Below the pieces are notes generated by a model. That model searched no databases. It saw nothing but the letters and a program-made list of their open reading frames with translations, and was not told where the DNA came from. DNA of 64,000 bases, taken from positions 77,897 through 141,896 of the forward strand of contig NZ_JAAEDL010000002.1 in NCBI RefSeq assembly GCF_018129005.1. The letters run 5' to 3'. Position numbers and translations under genes: made by a program. This document shows positions 94 to 9,553 of this stretch, piece after piece. The first letter of the stretch is position 1; the number at the start of each line of letters is the position of its first letter. Source of the DNA: Neoroseomonas eburnea. GTDB taxonomy: Bacteria; Pseudomonadota; Alphaproteobacteria; Acetobacterales; Acetobacteraceae.

Positions 94-290
94 CTAGCGT
101 CTGACCGGGCCGTTCTTCGGCCCCGAATGGCGGCGCATGGCGCGCGGCCCCCCCGTGTGTGACCTTGTCCCCCGACAGGCGAGGCCCCCTCCTAGCCCCG
201 ACGGCCAGGCAATGCAAACCGGGTCATATGTTTGGCGTGGCGGCAACGCGGAGCCTATCCTGCCAGGGTGACTCGGTCCTGCCGCCGTCC

Positions 291-2306
291 ATGCTGACGG
301 CCCTGGCACTGCTGGTGGCTACCCTGGCGGCGCTCGGTTTCGCCGGGTTGGCGCTTGCCCGCCGCCCGGCGGGGGCGCGGCTGCTGCATGGCGCCTGCGC
401 CGTGGCCGGCTTCGCGCTGGTCGCCGGCGGCGTTGCCGGGCTGCTCGGCGGGCCACAGACGATCGACCTGCCCTTCGGCCCGCCCTGGGGGCCGGCGCGG
501 CTGGCGCTCGATCCGCTCTCCTCCTGGTTCCTGCTGCCGCTCGGCATTGCCGTGGCCTGCGCCTCCCTGTTCGCCCTGGGCGGCATCCACGGGACGGTTC
601 CGGCGCGGGAACTGGTGCCCTGGCCGCTCTTCATCGCCGGCATGGCGCTGACCGTGCTGTCCGCGGACGGCTTCACCCTGCTGCTGGGGTTCGAGGCGAT
701 GTCGCTCGCCTCCTGGGCGCTGGTCGCGCACGACCACGCGCAGGCGGAGAATCGCCGGGCGGCGAGGATCTACCTCGGTTTCGCCGGCTTCGGCGGGCTC
801 ACGCTCATCCTGGCGATCGGGCTGCTGGCCGGCGGCGCGGGGGATGTCGCCTTCGCGGTCCTGCGGGAAGCCCCCCCCGAAGGCCTGCGCGCCATCGGGG
901 TATTGTTGCTGGTGCTCGCCGGCACAGGCTCGAAGGCCGGGCTCGCGCCGCTGCATGTCTGGCTGCCGCTCGCCCATCCCGCGGCGCCGAGCCATGTCTC
1001 GGCGGTGATGTCGGGGGCGATGACCAAGGTCGCGCTCTACATCCTTGCCCGCTTCGCCTTCGACCTGATGGGGCCGGCGCAGCCCTTCTGGATGGGGGCA
1101 CCGCTGATCGCCCTCGGTGCCGCCTCGGCGGTGATCGGGGCGCTGAGGGCCAATCTGGAGGACGACACCAAGACCCTGCTCGCCTGCTCGACCATCGAGA
1201 ATGTCGGGCTGATCGCCATGGGGCTCGGCCTGGCGCTCGCCTTCCGCGGTTCGGACCTGACGGCGATGGCGGCGCTGGCGGCCGGGGCGGCGCTGCTGCA
1301 TGCGCTGAACCACGCGGTCTTCAAGACGCTGCTCTTCCTCGCCGCCGGCGAGGTGCTGCACGGCGCGCTGTCGCGCCGGCTCGACCGGCTCGGCGGGCTG
1401 ATCCACCGCATGCCCTGGACCGCCTGGGCTGCGCTGGTCGGCACCGCGGCTGCGGCCTCGCTGCCGCCGCTGTCGGGTTTCGCCTCGGAATGGCTGCTGC
1501 TGCAGGCGCTGCTGGCCGGCTGGCGGGTCGGCGACCTCGCCTTCCAGATGGGCGTGGCGGCGGCGACGGCGCTGGCGGCGCTGGCCGCGGCACTGGCGGC
1601 CTCGGCGATGGTGCGGTTCTGGGGTTTGGCCTTCCTCGGCCGGCCGCGCACGCCACGCGCCGCGGGGGCGGAGGAAACCGGGGGCGCCGCCCGGATCGCG
1701 CTGCTGCTGCCGGCCGGGCTCACCGTTCTGCTCGGGCTGGCGCCGGGGCTGATGCTCGACCTCGCGGAACCGGCGCTGCGGCTGATGGCCGGCGCCGCCG
1801 CGCCGCGGGCGGGGTCCCTGGCGATCGGCGCGGCGGAAGGCGGCGCCCGCTACTGGCCGCTCTTCGTCGCGGCGCTGCTGGCGGGGGCGATCGGGCTGGC
1901 GGTCTGGCTGGTGCGGCGCCGGGCGCCGGCGGGGGTCGCGCGCGGGCCGGCCTGGGATTGCGGCTTCATCGCCGCACCGCCGCACCTGCCCTTCGGCGAC
2001 CCGGCAACGCAGCCGAGCGCCGCCGGCTTCGGCCAGCCGCTGCGTCGGATGCTGGGCGAAAGCCTGCTCGCCGCGCGCGAGAGCGTCACCATGCCGCCGC
2101 CCGGCGACACCCGCCCCGCCCTGCTGCGGGCGAGCCATCACGACCCGGTCCTCGCCGCCCTGGAAGGCCCGCTGCCGCGCTGGCGGGAGGCGATCGCGAC
2201 CCAGGCGGAGAAGCTGCGGGACCTGTCCATCCGCCAGTGCCTCGGCCTCACCTTCGGGGCGGTGGTGCTGATGCTCGCCCTGCTCGCCTGGCTGGAGGCG
2301 CGCTGA
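291..2306 (+). CDS. Hyf/Ehr-type complex membrane subunit, HyfB/NuoL/MnhA-like proton-antiporter-type subunit
   Basis: The 715-aa ORF (159-2306) contains LAPLHVWLPLAHPAAPSHVSAVMSGAMTKVALY, the hallmark of the NuoL/M/N-HyfB family, and has many TM helices. The start is uncertain (ATG at 159 or 291); 291 was chosen because it begins directly at a TM helix. Confidence 0.8.
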   Translation: MLTALALLVATLAALGFAGLALARRPAGARLLHGACAVAGFALVAGGVAGLLGGPQTIDLPFGPPWGPARLALDPLSSWFLLPLGIAVACASLFALGGIHGTVPARELVPWPLFIAGMALTVLSADGFTLLLGFEAMSLASWALVAHDHAQAENRRAARIYLGFAGFGGLTLILAIGLLAGGAGDVAFAVLREAPPEGLRAIGVLLLVLAGTGSKAGLAPLHVWLPLAHPAAPSHVSAVMSGAMTKVALYILARFAFDLMGPAQPFWMGAPLIALGAASAVIGALRANLEDDTKTLLACSTIENVGLIAMGLGLALAFRGSDLTAMAALAAGAALLHALNHAVFKTLLFLAAGEVLHGALSRRLDRLGGLIHRMPWTAWAALVGTAAAASLPPLSGFASEWLLLQALLAGWRVGDLAFQMGVAAATALAALAAALAASAMVRFWGLAFLGRPRTPRAAGAEETGGAARIALLLPAGLTVLLGLAPGLMLDLAEPALRLMAGAAAPRAGSLAIGAAEGGARYWPLFVAALLAGAIGLAVWLVRRRAPAGVARGPAWDCGFIAAPPHLPFGDPATQPSAAGFGQPLRRMLGESLLAARESVTMPPPGDTRPALLRASHHDPVLAALEGPLPRWREAIATQAEKLRDLSIRQCLGLTFGAVVLMLALLAWLEAR

Positions 2307-2307
2307 G

Positions 2308-3267
2308 ATGGCCGTGGTCTGGGGCATCCTCGCGCAGATCCTTCACCTCGCGCTGATCCTCGCCGCCGCGCCGGCGCTGACCGGCGTGGTGCGCTGGCTG
2401 AAGGCGCGGATGATGGGCCGGCAGGGGCCGCATCCGCTGCAGCCGCTGCGGGACCTCGTGAAGCTGCTGCGCAAGCGGCCGGTGCTGGCGGAGAACGCCT
2501 CCGCCGTCTCGCGCGCCGCGCCCTATGTCGCGGTCGGCGCGGCGGTGGCGGCGGCGGCGCTGGTGCCCTCCTTCGCCCGCGGCATGGCCTTCGCGCCGCT
2601 GGCCGACCTGATCCTGGTGGCGGGGCTGCTGGCGCTCGGGCGCGTCGCCATGGCGCTCGCCGGCATGGATGTCGGCACGCCCTTCGGCGGGCTCGGCGCG
2701 GCGCGGGAGATGAGCTTCGCGGCGCTCGCCGAACCCGCGCTGGTGGTGGCGGCGCTGACGCTCGCCATCCTCGCCGCCTCGACCAACCTCGATGCCATCG
2801 CCGGCGCCGTGCGCGACGGCGGGCTCGGGCTGCGCGTCTCGCTCGGCCTCGCGCTGGTCGCGCTGCTGGCGGTGGCGGTGGCCGAGAACGCCCGCATCCC
2901 GGTGGACAACCCGGCGACGCACCTGGAACTGACCATGGTGCACGAGGCGATGATCCTCGAAGCCTCCGGCCGGCACCTGGCGCTGTGGGACTATGCGGCC
3001 ATGCTGCGGCTGACGCTGTGGCTCGCCCTGCTGGCGGCGGTCTTCCTGCCGCTCGGCCTGGCGCCGCCGGGTGCTGCGCCGCACCATTGGATCCTCGGCC
3101 TGCTCGCCTGGGGGGTGAAGATGGCGGGGCTCGCCCTGGCGCTCGCCGCCTTCGAGAGCGCCATCGCCAAGATGCGCGTCTTCCGCGTGCCGGAATTCCT
3201 CGGCGCGGCGCTGCTGCTGGGGCTGCTCGGCGCCATCTTCCTCTTCGTCTCGACGGGGCTGACGTGA
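2308..3267 (+). CDS. HyfC/NuoH-like membrane subunit of the Hyf/Ehr complex
   Basis: 319-aa polytopic membrane protein immediately downstream of the HyfB-like gene, separated by 1 nt. Its architecture matches HycD/HyfC/NuoH. Confidence 0.75.
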   Translation: MAVVWGILAQILHLALILAAAPALTGVVRWLKARMMGRQGPHPLQPLRDLVKLLRKRPVLAENASAVSRAAPYVAVGAAVAAAALVPSFARGMAFAPLADLILVAGLLALGRVAMALAGMDVGTPFGGLGAAREMSFAALAEPALVVAALTLAILAASTNLDAIAGAVRDGGLGLRVSLGLALVALLAVAVAENARIPVDNPATHLELTMVHEAMILEASGRHLALWDYAAMLRLTLWLALLAAVFLPLGLAPPGAAPHHWILGLLAWGVKMAGLALALAAFESAIAKMRVFRVPEFLGAALLLGLLGAIFLFVSTGLT

Positions 3268-3932
3268 GCTTCGGGCAGCTCCCCTACGACGTCGCGCACC
3301 TGCTGGGCGGCGGCGTGCTGCTGTTCTCCTTCGTGCTGCTCTACCAGCGGCGGATCGGGGCGGTGATCAACGCCTTCGCGACGCAGGGCACGCTGCTGGC
3401 GATCGCCGCGGCCTGGCAGGGCTACGTGCAGGGGGCGCCGGGGCTCTACGTGACGGCGGTGCTGGCGCTGGCGGCCAAGGGCGTGCTGATCCCGCTCGCC
3501 CTGCACGCCATCGTCCGGCGGCTCGACCTGCACCGCACGGTGGAGACCGCGCTCGGCATCGGGCCGTCGCTGGTGGCGGGGGTGGGGCTGGTGGGGCTCG
3601 CGATCCTCGTCGTGCTGCCGGCGACCGAGGGCGCGCGCGCGCTGGCGCGGGAGGACCTCGCCCTCGCCCTGTCCGTCGTGCTGCTGGGCATGCTCATGAT
3701 GATCACGCGCCGCAACGCCATCAGCCAGGTGATCGGGCTGCTCAGTCTCGAGAACGGGCTGATCCTCGCCGCCATCGGCGTCGCCGGCATGCCGCTGGTG
3801 GTGGAGCTCTCCACCGCCGCGCTGGTGCTGATGGTCGCCGTCGTCGCCGGCGTCTTCGCCTTCCAGATCCGGGAGCGCTTCGACACGCTCGACACCGGCA
3901 GCCTGGAAGAACACCGCGGAGAGCGGCGCTGA
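3264..3932 (+). CDS. HyfE-like small membrane subunit
   Basis: GTG at 3264 overlaps the TGA of the upstream gene. About 222 aa, hydrophobic throughout (VSFGQLPYDVAHLLGGGVLLFSFVLLYQRR...). Position and size match HyfE. Confidence 0.55.
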   Translation: MSFGQLPYDVAHLLGGGVLLFSFVLLYQRRIGAVINAFATQGTLLAIAAAWQGYVQGAPGLYVTAVLALAAKGVLIPLALHAIVRRLDLHRTVETALGIGPSLVAGVGLVGLAILVVLPATEGARALAREDLALALSVVLLGMLMMITRRNAISQVIGLLSLENGLILAAIGVAGMPLVVELSTAALVLMVAVVAGVFAFQIRERFDTLDTGSLEEHRGERR

Positions 3933-5368
3933 TGCCGCTGCAATGGGCCATCGTCTTCTTCGCCTGGGGCGGTGCGGTCGTGCTGGCGGCGATCCCGAAC
4001 CTGCGCCATGCGACGCTGGCGAATGCCGCGGTCAGCGCCGGGTCGTTCCTGCTGGCGCTCGCTCTCGCCGCCCAGCCCTTCGCCGAGCATGGCTGGACGC
4101 GCACGGATGCGGTCAACCTGCCCTTCATCCTCGTCTCGGCCTTCGTCGGGCTGACCACCTCGGTCTTCTCCGCCGCGACGCTCGACCAGGAAGGCTTCGA
4201 CCACTGGCGCATCCGCGCCTATCACACCGCCTACCAGGTGTTCATGGGGGCGCAGACGCTGGCGCTGCTGGCGGACAATCTCGGCGTCATGTGGGTGGCG
4301 GTGGAGATCGCGACGCTCGCCACCGTGTCGATGGTCGCGGTGCACCGCACGCCAGCGGCCTTCGAGGCGGCGTGGAAGTTCTTCATCCTCTGCGGCGTCG
4401 GCATCGCCCTGGCGCTGTTCGGCACCATCGTCCTCTATCTCGCCGCGCAGCCGCTGCTGCACGAGGAAACCGGGCTGTCCTGGGCGGCGCTGATGGGCGT
4501 CGCGGCGCAATGCGACCCGGGCACGCTGAACCTCGCCTTCGCCTTCCTGCTGCTCGGCTACGGCACCAAGGCGGGGCTGGTGCCGCTGCATTCCTGGCTG
4601 CCGGATGCCCATGCCGAGGGCCCCGTGCCGATCTCCGCCGTGCTGTCGGGGCTGTTGCTGAACGCCGCGATGCTCGCGGTGCTGCGGGCGAAGTCGATCG
4701 TCGGCGCGAACCCGGAGGCGATCGCACCGGGACCCTTCCTGCTGGCGCTCGGCCTGGCCTCGGTGCTGCTGGCGGCGCTGGCGCTGTGGCGGCGGCGCGA
4801 TGCGCGGCGCTTCTTCGCCTGGTCCAGCATCGAGCACATGGGCCTCGCGGCCTTCGCCTTCGGCCTCGGCGGGCCGGCGGCGAACCTCGCGGGACTGCTG
4901 CACATGATCGGCCATTCTCTGGTGAAGAGCGCGATCTTCTTCGGCGTCGGCCGCGCCGCCCAGGCCAAGGGCAGCCAGAAGATCGCCGACATCGGCGGGC
5001 TGGTGGCGACGCATCCGGCGCTGGGCTGGGGGCTGGCGCTCGCCATCGCGGCGATCGGCGGGCTGCCGCCGGCGCTGATCTTCGCCTCGGAATTCCGGCT
5101 GCTCTCGGCGGCGGCGGCGGAGGCGCCGTGGCTCGCCGTGCCGCTGGCCCTCGGCATGATCACGGCGCTGGCGGCGCTGATCACCGTGCTGCAGGCAATG
5201 TGCTTCGGAACGCCGACGCCGGACGCGGCGACCGCGCCGAATGGCTGGCGCGAGACGGCGGCGGCGACGCCGCTTTGGCTCCATCTGGCAGTCGCGGCGG
5301 GGCTGGGGCTGGCCATGCCGGGGGCGCTGGCGGCGCTGCTGGCCGAGGCTGCGAGGGTGATCGGATGA
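3932..5368 (+). CDS. HyfF/NuoN-like antiporter-type membrane subunit
   Basis: 478 aa. ATG overlaps the upstream stop (TGATG). The motif LVPLHSWLPDAHAEGPVPISAVLSG is typical of NuoM/N-HyfF. Confidence 0.8.
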   Translation: MPLQWAIVFFAWGGAVVLAAIPNLRHATLANAAVSAGSFLLALALAAQPFAEHGWTRTDAVNLPFILVSAFVGLTTSVFSAATLDQEGFDHWRIRAYHTAYQVFMGAQTLALLADNLGVMWVAVEIATLATVSMVAVHRTPAAFEAAWKFFILCGVGIALALFGTIVLYLAAQPLLHEETGLSWAALMGVAAQCDPGTLNLAFAFLLLGYGTKAGLVPLHSWLPDAHAEGPVPISAVLSGLLLNAAMLAVLRAKSIVGANPEAIAPGPFLLALGLASVLLAALALWRRRDARRFFAWSSIEHMGLAAFAFGLGGPAANLAGLLHMIGHSLVKSAIFFGVGRAAQAKGSQKIADIGGLVATHPALGWGLALAIAAIGGLPPALIFASEFRLLSAAAAEAPWLAVPLALGMITALAALITVLQAMCFGTPTPDAATAPNGWRETAAATPLWLHLAVAAGLGLAMPGALAALLAEAARVIG

Positions 5369-5383
5369 GCGCCGTGATGAAAG

Positions 5384-5516
5384 GAAGGTCGGGGGAGGAG
5401 AACCTCCCCCGATCCCCCTCCCTTCCTTGTCCCTTGGGAACTGACTTCGGCTGTCAGTCCCCAGGTGCCAGAGAAGGTTGGGGGGTGCGGGGGGAAGTTC
5501 CCTTCCCCCCGACCTT
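5384..5516. repeat. Intergenic repeat family A, copy 1 (three-hairpin palindromic element, about 130 bp)
   Basis: The left arm gaaggtcgggggaggagaacctcccccgatccccctccc is an imperfect inverse of the right arm ggttggggggtgcggggggaagttcccttccccccgacctt. The central hairpin is gggaactgacttcggctgtcagtcccc. It sits between the hyfF-like stop and the large-subunit start. Three further copies are listed below. Confidence 0.8.
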
Positions 5517-5525
5517 TGTCGCCCC

Positions 5526-7034
5526 ATGACCGCAACCGCCCTCATCCGCGGCGGTGCCCCGCAGGGCGCCCGGCCCTTCGAGCGCTTCCTCCTCACTGCC
5601 GAGACCTGGGCGGAACTGCCGGCGGCGCTGCTGGCCGAGCCTTCGCTCGCCTTGCTCGGCCTATGGGCGGAGCCCGGCATGGTGCATGCCGCGTTCATGG
5701 ATGACGAGACGAACGCGGCGCTGCTCGCCTCCGCCCCGGCCGGGGCCGGCCGCTACACCGCCCTCTCCTCCGCCCGCCCCGGTGCCATCCGCTTCGAGCG
5801 CATGATCCGCGACCTCTGGGCGCTGACGGCGGAGGGCGCGGTCGATCTCCGCCCCTGGCTCGACCACGGGCGCTGGGGCCTGGAGGGCCCGATGTCCGGC
5901 CGCCCCGCGGTGACGGGCGGCGAGCCGCCGCAGCCCGAATTCCTCCCCGTCGAGGGCGAGGGCGTGCATCAGATCCCGGTCGGCCCGATCCATGCCGGCG
6001 TCATCGAGCCCGGTCATTTCCGCTTCCACATCCAGGGCGAGCTGGTGGTCCGGCTGGAGGAGCGGCTCGGCTACAAGCACAAGGGCACGCTCGGGCTGAT
6101 GCTCGGCAAGTCGCCGCGCGCCGCGGCGGCCTTCGCGGCGCGGCTGTCCGGCGATTCCACCGTCGCGCATGGCTGGGCCTTCGCCGCCGCGGCGGAGGCC
6201 GCGCTCGGCGCCGAGGTGCCGCCCCGGGCGCTGGCGCTGCGCGCGGTGATGGGCGAGCTCGAGCGCATCCACAATCACCTCAACGACTGGGGCTTCGTCT
6301 GCAACGATGCCGCCTTCGCCTTCCCGCATGCCCGCTGCGGCTGGCTGCGCGAAGGCGTGCTGCGCGCCTGCGAGGGCGCCTTCGGCCATCGGCTGATGAT
6401 GGACCGCGTGCTGCCCGGCGGCGTGGCGCCGGACATCGCGCCGGGCGGGGCGGAGGCGATCCTCGCCGCCCTCGACGCCGTGGAGCGCGAGACGCCCGCC
6501 CTGATGCGCATCTATGAGAGCCACGCCAGCCTGCAGGACCGGGTGGTCGGCACCGGGTTCCTCGACCCTATGCTGGCGGCGCGCTTCGCCGCCGGCGGCT
6601 TCGTCGGCCGTGGGTCGGGCCGGCGCTTCGATGCGCGGCGGGGGCCCGGCTACGCGCCCTTCGACGCCATGGTTCCGGCGCTCGCGGTGGAGACGGGCGG
6701 CGACGTCGATGCGCGGGTGCGGGTGCGGGTGGCGGAGATCGGTACCGCCATCTCGCTCGTGCGGCGCCTGCTGATGACACTGCCGGAGGGCGAGACGCTG
6801 CTCCCGCTGCCCTCCCGCGCCGGGGAAGGCAGCGCGATGATCGAGGGCTTCCGCGGGGAGTGCCTCGCCTGGGTGCGGCTGGACGAGGGCGGGCTGATCC
6901 GCGCGGTCTTCCTGCGCGACCCTTCCTGGCTGCAATGGCCGCTGCTGGAAGCCGCGATCGAGGGCAACATCGTCGCCGACTTCCCGCTGTGCAACAAATC
7001 CTTCAACTGCTCCTACAGCGGGGTGGACCTGTGA
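5526..7034 (+). CDS. NuoC-NuoD/HycE-like large subunit of an energy-converting-hydrogenase-related (Ehr-type) complex, lacking the [NiFe] cysteine ligands
   Basis: It contains PVGPIHAGVIEPGHFRF and ERLGYKHKG (NuoD/large-subunit signatures). At the position of the N-terminal RxCGxCxxxH motif the sequence is RLSGDSTVAH. The C-terminal DPCxxCxxH motif is replaced by DFPLCNKSFNCSYSGVDL. The start was set at ATG 5526; the upstream in-frame ATG at 5478 reads through repeat A. Confidence 0.85.
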   Translation: MTATALIRGGAPQGARPFERFLLTAETWAELPAALLAEPSLALLGLWAEPGMVHAAFMDDETNAALLASAPAGAGRYTALSSARPGAIRFERMIRDLWALTAEGAVDLRPWLDHGRWGLEGPMSGRPAVTGGEPPQPEFLPVEGEGVHQIPVGPIHAGVIEPGHFRFHIQGELVVRLEERLGYKHKGTLGLMLGKSPRAAAAFAARLSGDSTVAHGWAFAAAAEAALGAEVPPRALALRAVMGELERIHNHLNDWGFVCNDAAFAFPHARCGWLREGVLRACEGAFGHRLMMDRVLPGGVAPDIAPGGAEAILAALDAVERETPALMRIYESHASLQDRVVGTGFLDPMLAARFAAGGFVGRGSGRRFDARRGPGYAPFDAMVPALAVETGGDVDARVRVRVAEIGTAISLVRRLLMTLPEGETLLPLPSRAGEGSAMIEGFRGECLAWVRLDEGGLIRAVFLRDPSWLQWPLLEAAIEGNIVADFPLCNKSFNCSYSGVDL

Positions 7035-7414
7035 CCATCCGCTTCGACCAGACGATCCCGATCCTGCGCATCTTCGATCTCGCGAAGGCGCGCGAGTTCT
7101 ACGTCGACTTCCTCGGCATGAGCTGGGACTGGGAGCATCGCTTCGAGCCGGACCTGCCGGTCTTCGCGCAGGTCTCGCGCGGGGGGCTGCTGCTCTTCCT
7201 CAGCGAGCATTTCGGCGACGGCACGCCAGGGACCAAGCTGCTGCTGCGCATGGGCGGACTCGATGCCTTCCGCGCGGAACTTCTCGGCAGGGCCTATCGC
7301 CATGCCCGGCCTGGCATCCACGAGCGGCCCTGGGGATGGCGGGACATGGAGGTGACGGACCCCTTCGGCAACCGGCTCGTCTTCTCCGAGCGCATCGGGG
7401 AGACATGCGACTGA
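7032..7414 (+). CDS. Glyoxalase/bleomycin-resistance/dioxygenase (VOC) family protein embedded in the Ehr operon
   Basis: GTG at 7032 overlaps the large-subunit stop. About 127 aa. VTIRFDQTIPILRIFDLAKAREFYVDFLGMSWDWEHRF...LFLSEHFGDGTPG is a typical VOC fold sequence pattern. Its 3' end overlaps the next gene by 10 nt. Confidence 0.65.
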
Positions 7415-7947
7415 TGCTGTGGCCCCGCCTCGCCCGCGCCCTGCTCGGCAAGCCGCTGACCGATGCACCGCCGCCCGTGCCGCAGCATACGGTCGTCGCG
7501 TTGGGGGAACGCCTGGCCGCGGCCGCCCGCGTGCGGCTCGGCCGCAGCCTGGCGATCCGCGAGGTGGACAGCGGATCCTGCAACGGCTGCGAGCTGGAAG
7601 TGAACGCGCTGCAGAATGTCGCCTATGACCTCGAACGCTTCGGCCTGCGCTTCGTCGCCTCCCCCAGGCATGCCGACGTGCTACTGGTGACCGGCCCCGC
7701 CTGCCGCAACATGACGGAGGCCCTGCAGCGCGCCCTGGACTGCACCCCGGACCCGAAATGGATCGTCGCGGTCGGCGACTGCGCCGTCGATGGCGGCGTC
7801 TTCAAGGGATCCTATGCCATTGAGGGCGGCGTCGGCGCGGTGCTGCCGGTGGATCTGCTGATTCCGGGGTGCCCGCCCTCCCCCACCCAGTTGCTGGAAG
7901 GGCTGCTGGCGCTGCTGGAAGCCGAGGCGGCGCCGGCCCGGAGATAA
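7405..7947 (+). CDS. NuoB/HycG-like small subunit (Fe-S cluster N2-type)
   Basis: The motifs GSCNGCELE, GDCAVDGG and PGCPP provide the conserved NuoB-type cysteines. ATG at 7405 (MRLMLWPRL...). Confidence 0.85.
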   Translation: MRLMLWPRLARALLGKPLTDAPPPVPQHTVVALGERLAAAARVRLGRSLAIREVDSGSCNGCELEVNALQNVAYDLERFGLRFVASPRHADVLLVTGPACRNMTEALQRALDCTPDPKWIVAVGDCAVDGGVFKGSYAIEGGVGAVLPVDLLIPGCPPSPTQLLEGLLALLEAEAAPARR

Positions 7948-7952
7948 AATTG

Positions 7953-7980
7953 GGCCGGCCGGATCGCTCCAGCCGGCCCA
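7953..7980 (+). terminator. Candidate stem-loop terminator after the Ehr operon
   Basis: gggccggccggatcgctccagccggccc forms an 8-bp GC stem 6 nt after the stop. There is no U-tract, as is common in high-GC alphaproteobacteria. Confidence 0.3.
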
Positions 7981-8191
7981 AGAGCCCTTCCAGAGGAAGG
8001 ACCGGAAACGGTGGCCTGCCGGGAATAAGCCACCGTGACGGAAAGACCTTCGCAGCCGGCACCTCACGGCATGGTGGCAACCGCCTTAACTTCCTGCAAC
8101 CATTGTGCGAAGGGCTCCACCTCCCGCCATGCCCCCTCCCGCTGCCGTGATGCGGTATGGTGGGCGGCGGAATACCCGGAAGCGGGAGGCC

Positions 8192-9553
8192 ATGATGCGG
8201 AACGCAGCCTGGCGGACCGGCGCGGCGGCGAGCCTGCTGCTGAAGGCGGCTGTGGTGCTGGCGGTGCTCCTGGCGGCACTGCCGGCGCTCGCGCAGCAGC
8301 GCGTGGCGCTGGTGGTGGGCAACGGCGCCTACCGCGCCGTGCCGCGGCTCGCCAACCCCGCGGCGGATGCGGCGGCGATCGCCGGCGCGCTGCGGGCCGC
8401 GGGCTTCTCGACCGAGCTGGTGCGGGATTCCGCCAAGGACGGGATGGAAGCGGCGCTGCGCCGCTTCGGCGTGGCGGCGGAAGGCGCGGAACTCGCGGTC
8501 TTCTACTTCGCGGGGCACGGCATCCAGGTCGGCGGCGAGAACTATCTCCTGCCCGTGGATGCCCGGCTGTCCCATGCACGGGACGTGGATTTCGAGCTGA
8601 TCGGCCTGCCGGTCGTGACCCGGGCGATGCAGCCGGCGCGGGCGCGCGTGCTGATCCTCGATGCCTGCCGCGACAACCCGCTGGCGGCGCAGATGCGCGG
8701 GTTGTCCGGCACGCGTTCGGTCGGGCGGGGGCTCGCGCGGGTCGAGACGGTGGACCTCGGCACACTGATCGCATTCTCCACCAGCCCGGGGGCGGTGGCG
8801 CTGGACGGCACGGGGCGCAACAGCCCTTTCACCGCGGCGCTGGTGCAGCACATGGCGACGCCGGGCATCGAGATCCGGCAGTTGATGACGCGGGTGCGCC
8901 GCTCCGTGGTCGAGGCGACGGGCGGCCAGCAGGTGCCCTGGGACAACAGCAGCCTGATCACCGAGGTGGTGCTGCGGCCCGGGCGCGCCCCCGCCGCGCC
9001 GGCCCCGCCGCCGGTCGCCCTGGCGCCGCCGGCATCCCCCGTGCCGCAACCCACGCCGCAGCCCGCCCCGCGCGGCCGTGAGGCCACCATCGCTCCGACG
9101 GCCCCGGCCGTGCCGCTGCGTTTCGCGGCAGCCCGGCAGGTGGCGGCGAGCCAGGGCATTCCCCTGCCGGCCGACCTGCCGGCCGAGGCCGGCCGCGGTG
9201 CCCACCCCCTGCTCGGTGCCTGGGGCGGCACGCCGCGCTGGAACCGGACCGCGCGCGACTATCTGCTGATCGTCCTCGCCGTGGATGCGGCGGCCGGCTC
9301 GGCGGACATCCTGCTCGCGGCCGGCCATGGCACGACGCGCAGTTTCTCCGAAGGGCTGCAGCCAGGCTGGAGCCGCCACCGCGCGGCGCTGCGCGGCGAT
9401 TCCCTCATCTGGCAGGATGCCCTGGGCGACAGGTTCGAGGCCCGCCGCAGCGACTTCTTCGGCGAGGCGGTGGAGATCATCCACCGGCGGTCGGGCAGCG
9501 GCGGCCGCATCGTGAACGCCCAGGGGCAGATCGGGCTGGGCCGGATCGAATAG
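8192..9553 (+). CDS. Secreted caspase-family (peptidase C14) protein with a Pro-rich linker and an uncharacterised C-terminal domain
   Basis: The N-terminal signal/TM is AAASLLLKAAVVLAVLLAALPALAQQ. The caspase His-Cys dyad context is YFAGHGIQ and LILDACRDNP. Then comes a PAAPAPPPVALAPPASPVPQPTPQPAP linker followed by a domain of about 160 aa with no family I can name. Confidence 0.8.
   Translation: MMRNAAWRTGAAASLLLKAAVVLAVLLAALPALAQQRVALVVGNGAYRAVPRLANPAADAAAIAGALRAAGFSTELVRDSAKDGMEAALRRFGVAAEGAELAVFYFAGHGIQVGGENYLLPVDARLSHARDVDFELIGLPVVTRAMQPARARVLILDACRDNPLAAQMRGLSGTRSVGRGLARVETVDLGTLIAFSTSPGAVALDGTGRNSPFTAALVQHMATPGIEIRQLMTRVRRSVVEATGGQQVPWDNSSLITEVVLRPGRAPAAPAPPPVALAPPASPVPQPTPQPAPRGREATIAPTAPAVPLRFAAARQVAASQGIPLPADLPAEAGRGAHPLLGAWGGTPRWNRTARDYLLIVLAVDAAAGSADILLAAGHGTTRSFSEGLQPGWSRHRAALRGDSLIWQDALGDRFEARRSDFFGEAVEIIHRRSGSGGRIVNAQGQIGLGRIE

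What the first reader, a model, noticed from the sequence alone, without database searches (positions are those of the whole stretch)
7032..7414. A glyoxalase/VOC-family gene is inserted between the large and small subunit genes of the Ehr operon with overlapping start/stop codons
The 127-aa VOC protein starts at a GTG overlapping the large-subunit stop, and its last codons overlap the start of the NuoB-like gene. It is therefore co-translated with the complex subunits. VOC proteins are not known subunits of group-4 hydrogenase/Ehr/complex-I modules. This may be a lineage-specific accessory subunit or a co-regulated detoxification or metal-binding function.
Basis: seen in the sequence. Interest (0 to 1): 0.5.

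Follow-up and report, generated by a model that had tools for sequence, protein, structure and literature searches.

The report
Bleomycin-resistance-like gene inside a Hyq/Ehr operon
A real, well-conserved gene for a small bleomycin-resistance-like (VOC-fold) protein sits between the two catalytic-arm genes of a six-gene complex-I-like (Hyq/Ehr) operon, but only in some Acetobacteraceae and with repeated loss, so it is more likely a dispensable co-expressed passenger or accessory protein than a core subunit.

Summary
A 127-aa ORF (7031-7414, +) matches Pfam Glyoxalase_7 (E 9e-48). Its GTG overlaps the large-subunit stop (GTGA) and its TGA overlaps the NuoB-like ATG (TGATG). The host operon is the six-gene hyqBCEFGI/Ehr type of Neoroseomonas eburnea.

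The insert recurs at the same junction in at least 12 other Acetobacteraceae-type operons. Its dN/dS is 0.23-0.30 and its dS matches its neighbours, which fits one old insertion inherited with the operon. However, 62 of 81 orthologous operons scored have no insert, including the closest genome found (81% identical large subunit). One operon keeps a decayed VOC remnant and two carry a shortened, divergent copy. A different 78-aa orphan gene occupies the same slot in Falsiroseomonas.

The protein resembles bleomycin/zorbamycin-binding proteins (about 30% identity) and lacks the canonical VOC metal ligands. Its family is widespread in bacteria with no Hyq operon nearby.

Best reading: a translationally coupled, lineage-specific, dispensable ligand-binding protein, not an obligatory subunit. 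The accessory-subunit idea is neither shown nor excluded. Interest is moderate to low.

The parts
159..2306 (+). hyqB/hyfB-like antiporter-type membrane subunit. The true start is probably downstream of 159.
   Evidence: Pfam Proton_antipo_M and NCBIfam 'hydrogenase 4 subunit B' at E 2e-179. Orthologue alignments begin around residues 30-110.
2308..3267 (+). hyqC/NuoH-like membrane subunit
   Evidence: Pfam NADHdh, E 2e-33.
3264..3932 (+). hyqE/hyfE-like membrane subunit. Its GTG overlaps the hyqC stop (GTGA).
   Evidence: NCBIfam 'hydrogenase 4 membrane subunit', E 1e-18. Sequence read.
3932..5368 (+). hyqF/hyfF-like antiporter-type membrane subunit
   Evidence: NCBIfam 'hydrogenase 4 subunit F', 557 bits, above the cut-off of 533.
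5523..7034 (+). hyqG-like large subunit (NuoC::NuoD fusion type) without [NiFe] cysteines
   Evidence: Pfam Complex1_49kDa and NiFeSe_Hases. 100% identical to a N. eburnea protein. The L1 site reads RLGYxHKG, with no Cys in 85 of 85 orthologues.
7031..7414 (+). VOC / Glyoxalase_7 (bleomycin-resistance-like) gene, 127 aa. This is the finding.
7031..7034 (+). GTGA overlap: VOC start codon over the large-subunit stop codon
   Evidence: Sequence. The same xTGA overlap occurs in all VOC-bearing operons.
7399..7402 (+). GGAG Shine-Dalgarno-like motif for the NuoB-like gene, encoded inside the variable C-terminal tail of the VOC gene
   Evidence: Read from the sequence. An equivalent GGAG or AAGGAG lies 7-11 nt upstream of the hyqI start in every VOC-bearing operon.
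7412..7416 (+). TGATG overlap: VOC stop codon over the NuoB-like start codon
   Evidence: In insert-free operons the same TGATG joins the large subunit directly to the NuoB-like gene.
7414..7947 (+). hyqI/NuoB-like small subunit with four invariant Cys ([4Fe-4S] site)
   Evidence: Pfam Oxidored_q6 at E 2e-32 and NCBIfam NuoB subfamily above cut-off. Cys56, 59, 123 and 153 are invariant in 78 of 78 orthologues.
7950..7981 (.). GC-rich hairpin immediately after the operon, probably a terminator
   Evidence: 14-bp stem. No promoter-like or terminator-like site lies between the large subunit, the VOC gene and the NuoB-like gene.

Best explanation
A gene of the widespread Glyoxalase_7 family (VOC fold, bleomycin-resistance-like) was inserted once, long ago, into the TGATG junction between hyqG (the NuoCD-like large subunit) and hyqI (the NuoB-like small subunit). 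The host was the six-gene Hyq/Ehr complex-I-like operon in an ancestor of a group of Acetobacteraceae.

The insert rebuilt translational coupling on both sides (GTGA upstream, TGATG downstream) and carries the hyqI ribosome-binding site in its own 3' end. It is therefore made from the operon mRNA together with the complex. It has since been inherited vertically under purifying selection, but deleted many times.

The product is most likely a soluble homodimeric ligand-binding or sequestering protein that lacks the canonical VOC metal centre. Its biochemical role is probably the same as that of its many stand-alone relatives. It is co-expressed with the Hyq/Ehr complex but is not an obligatory structural subunit of it.

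Shown here: the gene, the overlaps, conservation, selection, patchy distribution, loss scars, the fold and the missing canonical ligands. Inferred: dimeric ligand binding, autonomy from the complex, and single gain followed by losses.
For: Gene reality and family:
- Pfam E 9e-48.
- The closest solved structures are the zorbamycin and bleomycin binding proteins at about 30% identity, by sequence and by fold (probability 1.0, TM about 0.7).
- The hinge Pro10 and the PWG tryptophan are invariant.

Same junction in other operons:
-, and L020 and L039. The flanking genes outside the operon differ between these loci.

Co-divergence with the operon:
- VOC dS is 0.49-0.65, against 0.49-0.78 for hyqC, hyqG and hyqI in the same genome pairs.
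- VOC dN/dS is 0.23-0.30, at or below that of the large subunit.
- GC3 is 0.89, like the neighbours.

Dispensability:
- 62 of 81 operons have a gap of 60 nt or less between hyqG and hyqI.
- VOC-bearing and VOC-free operons are sister taxa throughout the Acetobacteraceae clade.
- Rubritepida keeps two recognisable VOC blocks (PILRIFD and WDGDHR) around internal deletions.
- L025 and L030 carry a 115-aa, 41-48% identical copy that lacks the PWGW segment.

Autonomy of the family:
- Homologues at 62-65% identity lie in unrelated neighbourhoods.
- Homologues at 45-65% identity occur on plasmids and chromids of Streptomyces, Listeria, Pantoea and Methylobacterium. Only two of these sites were inspected, and neither has Hyq genes nearby.
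- No residue in hyqG or hyqI tracks VOC presence better than residues in the membrane-subunit controls.

Canonical metal ligands are absent.
Against: - The tight overlaps at both ends and the embedded ribosome-binding site are typical of genes whose products are needed in fixed ratio with their neighbours.
- The slot is the one that holds the NuoI-like ferredoxin gene (hycF/hyfH) in the E. coli hyc and hyf operons (textbook knowledge). A second, unrelated small gene is confined to the same slot in other lineages. Both facts hint that this position favours peripheral-arm partners.
- The family keeps invariant polar residues (D33, E35, H36, E59, H60, D63, D110, N114). These look more like an active or specific binding site than a simple drug sponge, so the 'sequestering' label may be wrong.
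- The short-protein NJ tree does not cleanly make all operon copies monophyletic.
- The co-variation test has low power.
- No ligand, expression or interaction data exist.
Confidence: 0.55

Rival explanations
1. The VOC protein is a genuine lineage-specific accessory subunit or assembly factor. It would dock on the HyqG/HyqI peripheral arm, for example capping the surface that NuoI/HycF covers in complex I and formate hydrogenlyase. That ferredoxin-like subunit is missing from all Hyq/Ehr operons of this type.
For: - It occupies the slot between the large and small subunit genes and is translationally coupled on both sides.
- It has been kept for a long time under purifying selection inside the operon.
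- None of the operons examined shows an additional gene at that junction that could encode a NuoI-like subunit.
- A second small soluble protein (about 78 aa) is found only on Hyq contigs, at the same junction.
Against: - It is absent from about three quarters of orthologous operons, including sister species, with no compensating change detected in HyqG or HyqI.
- Decay and truncation are seen in three lineages.
- It has no cofactor-binding motif. Its single Cys lies in the C-terminal tail, which varies between orthologues.
- The conserved residues include both operon-borne and stand-alone members of the family, and no operon-specific positions were looked for.
Confidence: 0.2
2. The VOC protein is not a structural subunit but is functionally tied to the complex. 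It would bind or convert a small molecule connected with the unknown chemistry of the complex, such as a quinone-like or redox-active aromatic compound or a reactive by-product. Co-expression would therefore be adaptive rather than accidental.
For: - An aromatic-rich, polar, invariant pocket (W32, W34, W101, Y89, E35/H36, E59/H60) in a fold whose relatives bind planar aromatic ligands such as bleomycin, zorbamycin, tiancimycin and riboflavin.
- Hyq has been proposed to work at a quinone site between HyqC, HyqG and HyqI (PMC3357923).
Against: - Stand-alone relatives occur in organisms and neighbourhoods without any Hyq/Ehr genes.
- The gene is frequently lost from the operon.
- No ligand is known.
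Confidence: 0.15
3. The patchy pattern reflects several independent insertions of Glyoxalase_7 genes at the same junction, rather than one gain followed by many losses.
For: In the NJ tree of the 127-aa proteins, some operon copies (L005/P0094, L090/P0111/P0108, L025/L030) branch among stand-alone homologues, outside the main operon clade.
Against: - Junction architecture is identical in all cases.
- dS parity with neighbouring genes.
- A deletion scar is directly observed.
- The outlying copies are the fast-evolving ones (dN 0.25-0.31), so long-branch effects are likely.
- The tree is built from a short protein and has no support values.
Confidence: 0.1
4. The ORF is a spurious open frame in high-GC DNA.
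For: Long chance ORFs are common here in all six frames.
Against: Pfam E 9e-48, 3321 homologues, dN/dS well below 1, a confident VOC fold and a RefSeq annotation.
Confidence: 0.01

Closest known systems
Azorhizobium caulinodans hyqRBCEFGI 'endo-hydrogenase' operon (Ng et al. 2009, PMC2650096; Sprecher et al. 2012, PMC3357923)
   Same: - Same six structural genes in the same order (B, C, E, F, G, I).
- HyqG is a NuoC::NuoD fusion of about 504 aa; the window protein is 503 aa.
- HyqI is NuoB-like with a CxxC plus two further Cys.
- No NuoI/HyfH-like gene.
- An orthologue from the related Xanthobacter flavus is 56% identical to the window large subunit.
   Different: - The window operon carries an extra VOC gene between hyqG and hyqI.
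- No hyqR could be checked, because the window starts at the operon.
- The published operon is described as six structural genes without any such insert.
- The A. caulinodans sequences themselves were not compared.
Ehr (energy-converting hydrogenase-related) complexes, as described in PMC6349859 and PMC10284858
   Same: Group-4-hydrogenase/complex-I-like subunits with antiporter-like membrane subunits. The large subunit lacks the CxxC motifs that bind Ni-Fe. Function is unknown.
   Different: No VOC or other small soluble protein is mentioned as a component in the passages on Ehr that were read in these two papers.
Bleomycin-family binding proteins (Sh Ble, BLMA, BLMT, ZbmA; PDB 1byl, 1xrk, 2zhp, 5cj3, 4iag)
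   Same: - VOC fold of about 125 aa.
- About 30% identity along the whole length.
- A conserved N-terminal Pro hinge and the PWG tryptophan.
- No canonical metal ligands.
   Different: - It scores far below the NCBIfam cut-offs for these families (36.8 against 140 bits).
- It has family-specific invariant motifs, DWEH and LSEHxGD, that are absent from the Ble proteins.
- It is not next to an antibiotic biosynthesis or transposon resistance context.
hycF / hyfH (NuoI-like 2x[4Fe-4S] ferredoxin genes) of the E. coli hyc and hyf operons
   Same: Same position in the operon, between the large and small subunit genes (textbook gene order hycE-hycF-hycG and hyfG-hyfH-hyfI).
   Different: There is no sequence or fold relationship. 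The VOC protein has no Cys clusters and cannot carry Fe-S centres.

Membership tests
VOC superfamily / Pfam PF19581 Glyoxalase_7 | Profile match above the curated threshold | tested here: met
   162.1 bits against a cut-off of 23.6, covering profile positions 11-130 of 133.
VOC superfamily / Pfam PF19581 Glyoxalase_7 | Paired beta-alpha-beta-beta-beta modules | tested here: met
   AlphaFold model with pLDDT 90. Elements are E11-13, H17-27, E31-37, E44-50, E53-58, then E69-73, H77-86, E96-98, E103-109, E115-121. The 50 listed PDB fold matches are VOC-fold proteins by their descriptions, and 223 matches have E <= 0.001.
Metal-dependent VOC enzymes (glyoxalase I type) | Four metal ligands (His/Glu) on strands beta1, beta4, beta5 and beta8 | tested here: not met
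   Alignment with E. coli GloA maps H5, E56, H74 and E122 to I9, F56, K69 and V117. These columns are not conserved His/Glu in the family. A non-canonical site formed by E35/H36/E59/H60 is not excluded.
Bleomycin-binding protein family (BLMA / Ble-Sh / ZbmA) | NCBIfam model score above cut-off | tested here: not met
   NF033156 scores 36.8 against 140. NF000479 scores 27.5 against 280. NF000489 scores 26.7 against 260.
Bleomycin-binding protein family (BLMA / Ble-Sh / ZbmA) | Stoichiometric binding of bleomycin-type antibiotics | not testable with these tools
   There is only fold and sequence resemblance and an automatic GO term 'response to antibiotic' on a homologue.
Ehr complex (operon context) | Group-4-hydrogenase/complex-I-like large subunit lacking the Ni-Fe binding CxxC motifs | tested here: met
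   The L1 position reads RLGYxHKG in 85 of 85 orthologues. There is no CxxC anywhere in the window protein. The C-terminus has C-x5-C, and those Cys are not invariant.
Ehr complex (operon context) | NuoB-like small subunit, NuoH-like subunit and antiporter-like membrane subunits encoded together | tested here: met
   The four Cys of the NuoB-like protein are invariant.
Hyq endo-hydrogenase operon | Gene order hyqB-C-E-F-G-I, with a HyqG NuoC::D fusion of about 504 aa and no hyfA, hyfD or hyfH | tested here: met
   Gene order and sizes in the window against the published description. The only departure is the VOC insert.
Hyq endo-hydrogenase operon | Direct orthology to AZC_4355-4360 and an upstream hyqR activator | not tested
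Xanthobacter flavus (L056, 56% identity) was used as a proxy. The region upstream of the operon is cut off by the window start.
Subunit of the Hyq/Ehr complex | Present wherever the complex is encoded | tested here: not met
   62 of 81 orthologous operons have no gene at the junction.
Subunit of the Hyq/Ehr complex | Physical association with HyqG/HyqI | not testable with these tools
   No multimer prediction or biochemical data were available. The co-variation scan was negative but has low power.

The most novel reading that the evidence does not exclude
The VOC protein, and in sister lineages the unrelated 78-aa orphan protein, could be true interchangeable peripheral-arm subunits of a minimal six-subunit complex-I-like enzyme. 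They would occupy the surface left bare by loss of the NuoI/HycF ferredoxin, and might tune or protect the exposed NuoB-type Fe-S cluster or dock the still unknown electron partner. That would be the first VOC-fold accessory subunit of the complex I / group-4 hydrogenase superfamily. It would also be a natural case of accessory-subunit gain, swap and loss.
Probability: 0.15. Interest if true: 0.65.

Novelty: new variant of a known kind. Interest (0 to 1): 0.35.

Why it matters
Hyq/Ehr complexes are widespread minimal relatives of complex I. Their substrate and partners are unknown, and the one genetic study system (A. caulinodans) is described as having six structural genes.

A conserved, translationally coupled extra gene in the catalytic-arm junction gives a cheap experimental handle. 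If the VOC protein co-purifies with the complex, it points to how such complexes recruit new peripheral subunits and perhaps to their ligand. If it does not, the locus is a clean example of a passenger gene that has adapted its own ends to preserve the coupling of an essential downstream gene.

Either way, the result warns against reading operon overlap as proof of subunit status. It also assigns a large uncharacterised family (Glyoxalase_7) to the bleomycin-binding branch of the VOC fold.

Tried and rejected
- A 51-sequence large-subunit alignment was too diverse for the genome scan. A 14-sequence alignment worked.
N. eburnea itself was not among the loci.
- Look-up of P0096 (Roseateles) found no record. 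P0100 was returned without DNA.
- Homology between the 78-aa junction gene and the VOC gene was tested and not supported. hhalign gave probability 1%, Pfam gave nothing, and its beta-beta-alpha-beta-beta model had no PDB match below E 0.1. UniRef nevertheless calls two members 'glyoxalase-like'.
- A search for HyqG or HyqI residues that track VOC presence found nothing above the membrane-subunit controls.
- Literature searches for PF19581/Glyoxalase_7, and for VOC together with hydrogenase/NuoB, found no relevant report.
- A tree of the VOC proteins was not decisive on single versus multiple origin.
- A spurious ORF and recent horizontal transfer were both considered and rejected.
Full report
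**1. What is in the sequence**

The + strand of window 159-7947 carries a tightly packed operon of seven genes:
- an HyfB-like antiporter-type subunit (159-2306; the start is uncertain);
- a NuoH/HyfC-like subunit (2308-3267);
- an HyfE-like subunit (3264-3932);
- an HyfF-like subunit (3932-5368);
- a 503-aa NuoC::NuoD/HycE-like large subunit (5523-7034);
- a 127-aa ORF (7031-7414);
- a 177-aa NuoB-like small subunit (7414-7947).

A GC-rich hairpin follows the operon at 7950-7981.

That GTG overlaps the large-subunit TGA as GTGA. The ORF's own TGA overlaps the ATG of the NuoB-like gene as TGATG. No promoter-like or terminator-like site lies inside this stretch.

The window comes from Neoroseomonas (Roseomonas) eburnea. 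The large subunit is 100% identical to a protein of that species. RefSeq annotates exactly the same 127-aa and 177-aa proteins, as WP_338148118.1 'glyoxalase superfamily protein' and WP_211844748.1.

**2. The ORF is a real gene**

- It matches Pfam PF19581 (Glyoxalase_7) at E 8.9e-48.
- It has 3321 homologues at E <= 0.001.
- 25 columns are invariant in a 35-sequence alignment spanning 59-90% identity.
- The AlphaFold model has pLDDT 90 and two beta-alpha-beta-beta-beta modules.
- Between operons, dN/dS is 0.23-0.30. That is as low as or lower than for the large subunit, which is 0.35-0.46.
- GC3 is 0.89, against 0.88-0.98 for its neighbours.

**3. What kind of VOC protein it is**

The best sequence matches among solved structures are the zorbamycin-binding protein ZbmA and the bleomycin-binding proteins, with E 1e-6 to 5e-5 and alignment along the whole length. 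Foldseek ranks the same proteins first at about 30% identity.

NCBIfam models for the BLMA, ZbmA and Ble-Sh families hit only far below their cut-offs. The protein is therefore a relative of these families, not a member.

In an alignment with E. coli glyoxalase I, the four metal ligands map to I9, F56, K69 and V117. The canonical VOC metal centre is thus absent, as it is in the Ble proteins.

The family has its own invariant polar and aromatic residues, in the motifs DWEH, LSEHxGD, PWG and DPFGN. These suggest a specific pocket whose ligand is unknown.

The family occurs at 45-65% identity on plasmids and chromids of Streptomyces, Listeria, Pantoea, Klebsiella, Bacillus and Methylobacterium. 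Only two of these sites were inspected, and neither has Hyq genes nearby. PGAP attaches only an automatic 'response to antibiotic' term.

**4. The host operon**

- The large subunit has no Cys at the L1 Ni-Fe site. It reads RLGYxHKG in 85 of 85 orthologues.
- The window protein contains no CxxC anywhere.
- The NuoB-like protein keeps four invariant Cys.

This fits the published definition of Ehr complexes.

The gene order and sizes match the Azorhizobium caulinodans hyqRBCEFGI 'endo-hydrogenase' operon. That operon is described as a six-subunit core version of complex I, with a 504-aa HyqG NuoC::D fusion and a four-Cys HyqI. None of the operons examined has a NuoI/HycF-like gene. In the E. coli hyc and hyf operons that ferredoxin gene sits exactly between the large and small subunit genes (textbook gene order). 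The VOC gene therefore occupies the old 'HycF slot'.

**5. Distribution of the insert**

Every VOC homologue looked up with 63% identity or more to the window protein lies at the same junction of the same operon, except P0100 (65%), which is stand-alone. The genes outside the operon differ between these loci.

| Homologue or locus | Source |
|---|---|
| P0012 | |
| P0026 | Siccirubricoccus phaeus |
| P0079 | Roseomonas arctica |
| P0094 | |
| P0073 | |
| P0111 | |
| P0108 | |
| L020, L039 | genome scan |

Stand-alone relatives at 62-65% identity sit in unrelated contexts:

| Homologue | Context |
|---|---|
| Bauldia protein | after homoserine dehydrogenase |
| P0100 | among SnoaL, DinB and glyoxalase genes |
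| P0097 | between a 2OG oxygenase gene and an enolase-superfamily gene |
| Methylobacterium bullatum protein | no Hyq genes within 5 kb |

A genome scan with a large-subunit alignment returned 80 orthologous operons at 52-81% identity. Together with the loci fetched earlier, both flanking genes could be scored in 81 loci.
- In 62 of them the large-subunit stop runs straight into the NuoB-like start. In many Acetobacteraceae loci this is the literal TGATG.
- These include the closest genome recovered, Roseomonas sp. HF4 (81% identity), and Siccirubricoccus deserti, sister to the VOC-bearing S. phaeus.
- No operon outside the Acetobacteraceae clade has the insert. Inside the clade, VOC-bearing and VOC-free operons alternate in almost every subclade.

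**6. Gain and loss**

Three observations favour one old insertion followed by many deletions.
- First, the junction architecture is identical everywhere. There is an xTGA overlap upstream, a TGATG overlap or near-abutment downstream, and a GGAG-type ribosome-binding site for hyqI encoded in the otherwise variable C-terminal tail of the VOC gene.
- Second, synonymous divergence of the VOC gene matches that of hyqC, hyqG and hyqI in the same genome pairs.
- Third, Rubritepida (L037), sister to the VOC-bearing Sediminicoccus, retains a roughly 100-nt remnant. It holds two recognisable VOC blocks, one encoding PILRIFD and one corresponding to WDWEHR, separated by deletions and ending in a premature stop.

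Two MAGs (L025, L030) carry a 115-aa copy at 41-48% identity. It still matches PF19581 but has lost the PWGW segment. The copies in L003 and L005 show raised dN.

On the NJ topology this scenario implies about ten or more independent losses. The NJ tree of the short VOC proteins does not place all operon copies in one clade. The outliers are the fast-evolving ones and the tree has no support values, so I give multiple insertions only a minor probability.

**7. A second gene at the same junction**

In Falsiroseomonas and Roseomonas oleicola operons (L024, L027, L028, L029, L043) a different gene of about 78 aa sits between hyqG and hyqI. In L001 it follows the VOC gene.

It has only 88 homologues among 5.8 billion proteins. 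For about a dozen of them, contig lengths coincide with large-subunit hits, so they lie on Hyq contigs.

It has no Pfam family and no detectable similarity to the VOC family. Its beta-beta-alpha-beta-beta model has no significant PDB match.

Its existence shows that this junction repeatedly hosts small soluble-protein genes. That keeps the accessory-subunit idea alive.

**8. Weighing the explanations**

Against an obligatory subunit:
- the complex is encoded without the VOC gene in most lineages, including sister species;
- the gene decays in some lineages;
- no HyqG or HyqI residue tracks its presence better than residues in the membrane-subunit controls;
- the alignment that yields the invariant residues mixes operon-borne and stand-alone members.

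For a functional tie:
- translational coupling on both sides;
- long retention under selection;
- the 'HycF slot' position;
- the second junction gene.

I therefore rank the explanations as follows:
- a co-expressed but autonomous ligand-binding or detoxification-type protein (0.55);
- a true accessory subunit or assembly factor (0.2);
- a protein handling a ligand related to the complex's chemistry (0.15).

A spurious ORF is excluded.

**9. Novelty and score**

The gene is already annotated generically. The operon type is known, as Hyq/Ehr. No paper found describes a VOC gene inside it. It is a new variant of a known kind.

The finding is solid as an observation, but the protein is dispensable and its function is unknown. 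Interest is 0.35.

Noticed in passing
L024:8628-8861; L029:5278-5511; L027:3182-3415; L028:8733-8966; L043:8595-8822; L001:8368-8601: An orphan gene of about 78 aa occupies the same hyqG|hyqI junction in Falsiroseomonas and R. oleicola operons, and follows the VOC gene in L001. Its conserved motif is GxFTxTLxxPGPGRxxxEHWAYDxRAxALDxxGWxAERVxPGTELVLRDPEG. Only 88 homologues exist, and about a dozen can be placed on Hyq contigs by matching contig lengths. It has no Pfam match, no PDB fold match and no similarity to the VOC family. It is absent from the window.
   Followed up: partly
L037:2087-2190: Rubritepida carries a decayed remnant of the VOC gene between hyqG and hyqI (MQTVTPILRIFDGWDGDHRIDAPLF...*). 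Two VOC blocks survive around internal deletions, which is direct evidence of loss.
   Followed up: yes
L025:8503-8850; L030:8503-8850: A shortened (115 aa), fast-evolving Glyoxalase_7 copy sits at the junction, 41-48% identical to the other operon copies. It lacks the RPG...PWGW segment, which suggests relaxed or changed constraint.
   Followed up: partly
window 5384-5517: The 154-nt gap between hyqF and hyqG holds a long imperfect palindrome of about 134 nt (RNA fold -94 kcal/mol, z = -5.3). Most orthologous operons have overlapping genes here. It is single-copy in the window and absent from the fetched loci. Rfam gives only sub-threshold generic hairpin hits.
   Followed up: partly
window 5523-7034 and orthologues L008-L087: NCBI names this large subunit 'hydrogenase expression protein HypE' or 'nickel-dependent hydrogenase large subunit'. 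However, the L1 Ni-Fe cysteine pair is replaced by RLGYxHKG in all 85 orthologues examined, including Xanthobacter flavus, a relative of the organism in which Hyq was published as a Ni-Fe hydrogenase.
   Followed up: partly
window 6935-7414: Database versions of the same VOC gene differ in start: 114 aa (MBR0679389.1), 127 aa (WP_338148118.1) and 159 aa (WP_246522786.1). Comparative data support the 127-aa GTG start at 7031.
   Followed up: partly
L023:8495-8520; L033:8522-8547: In Siccirubricoccus deserti and Paeniroseomonas aquatica, the hyqG stop is followed by TGATGCAG..., six extra codons (MQSLRRL / MQPLRRL) in frame with the usual MLWP start of hyqI. This may be a deletion scar of a former insert or an N-terminal extension.
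   Followed up: no
window 8105-9553: Immediately downstream of the operon lies a gene for a 482-aa protein with a caspase (Peptidase_C14) domain (Pfam E 3e-39). The genes downstream of the operon differ in every related genome.
   Followed up: no
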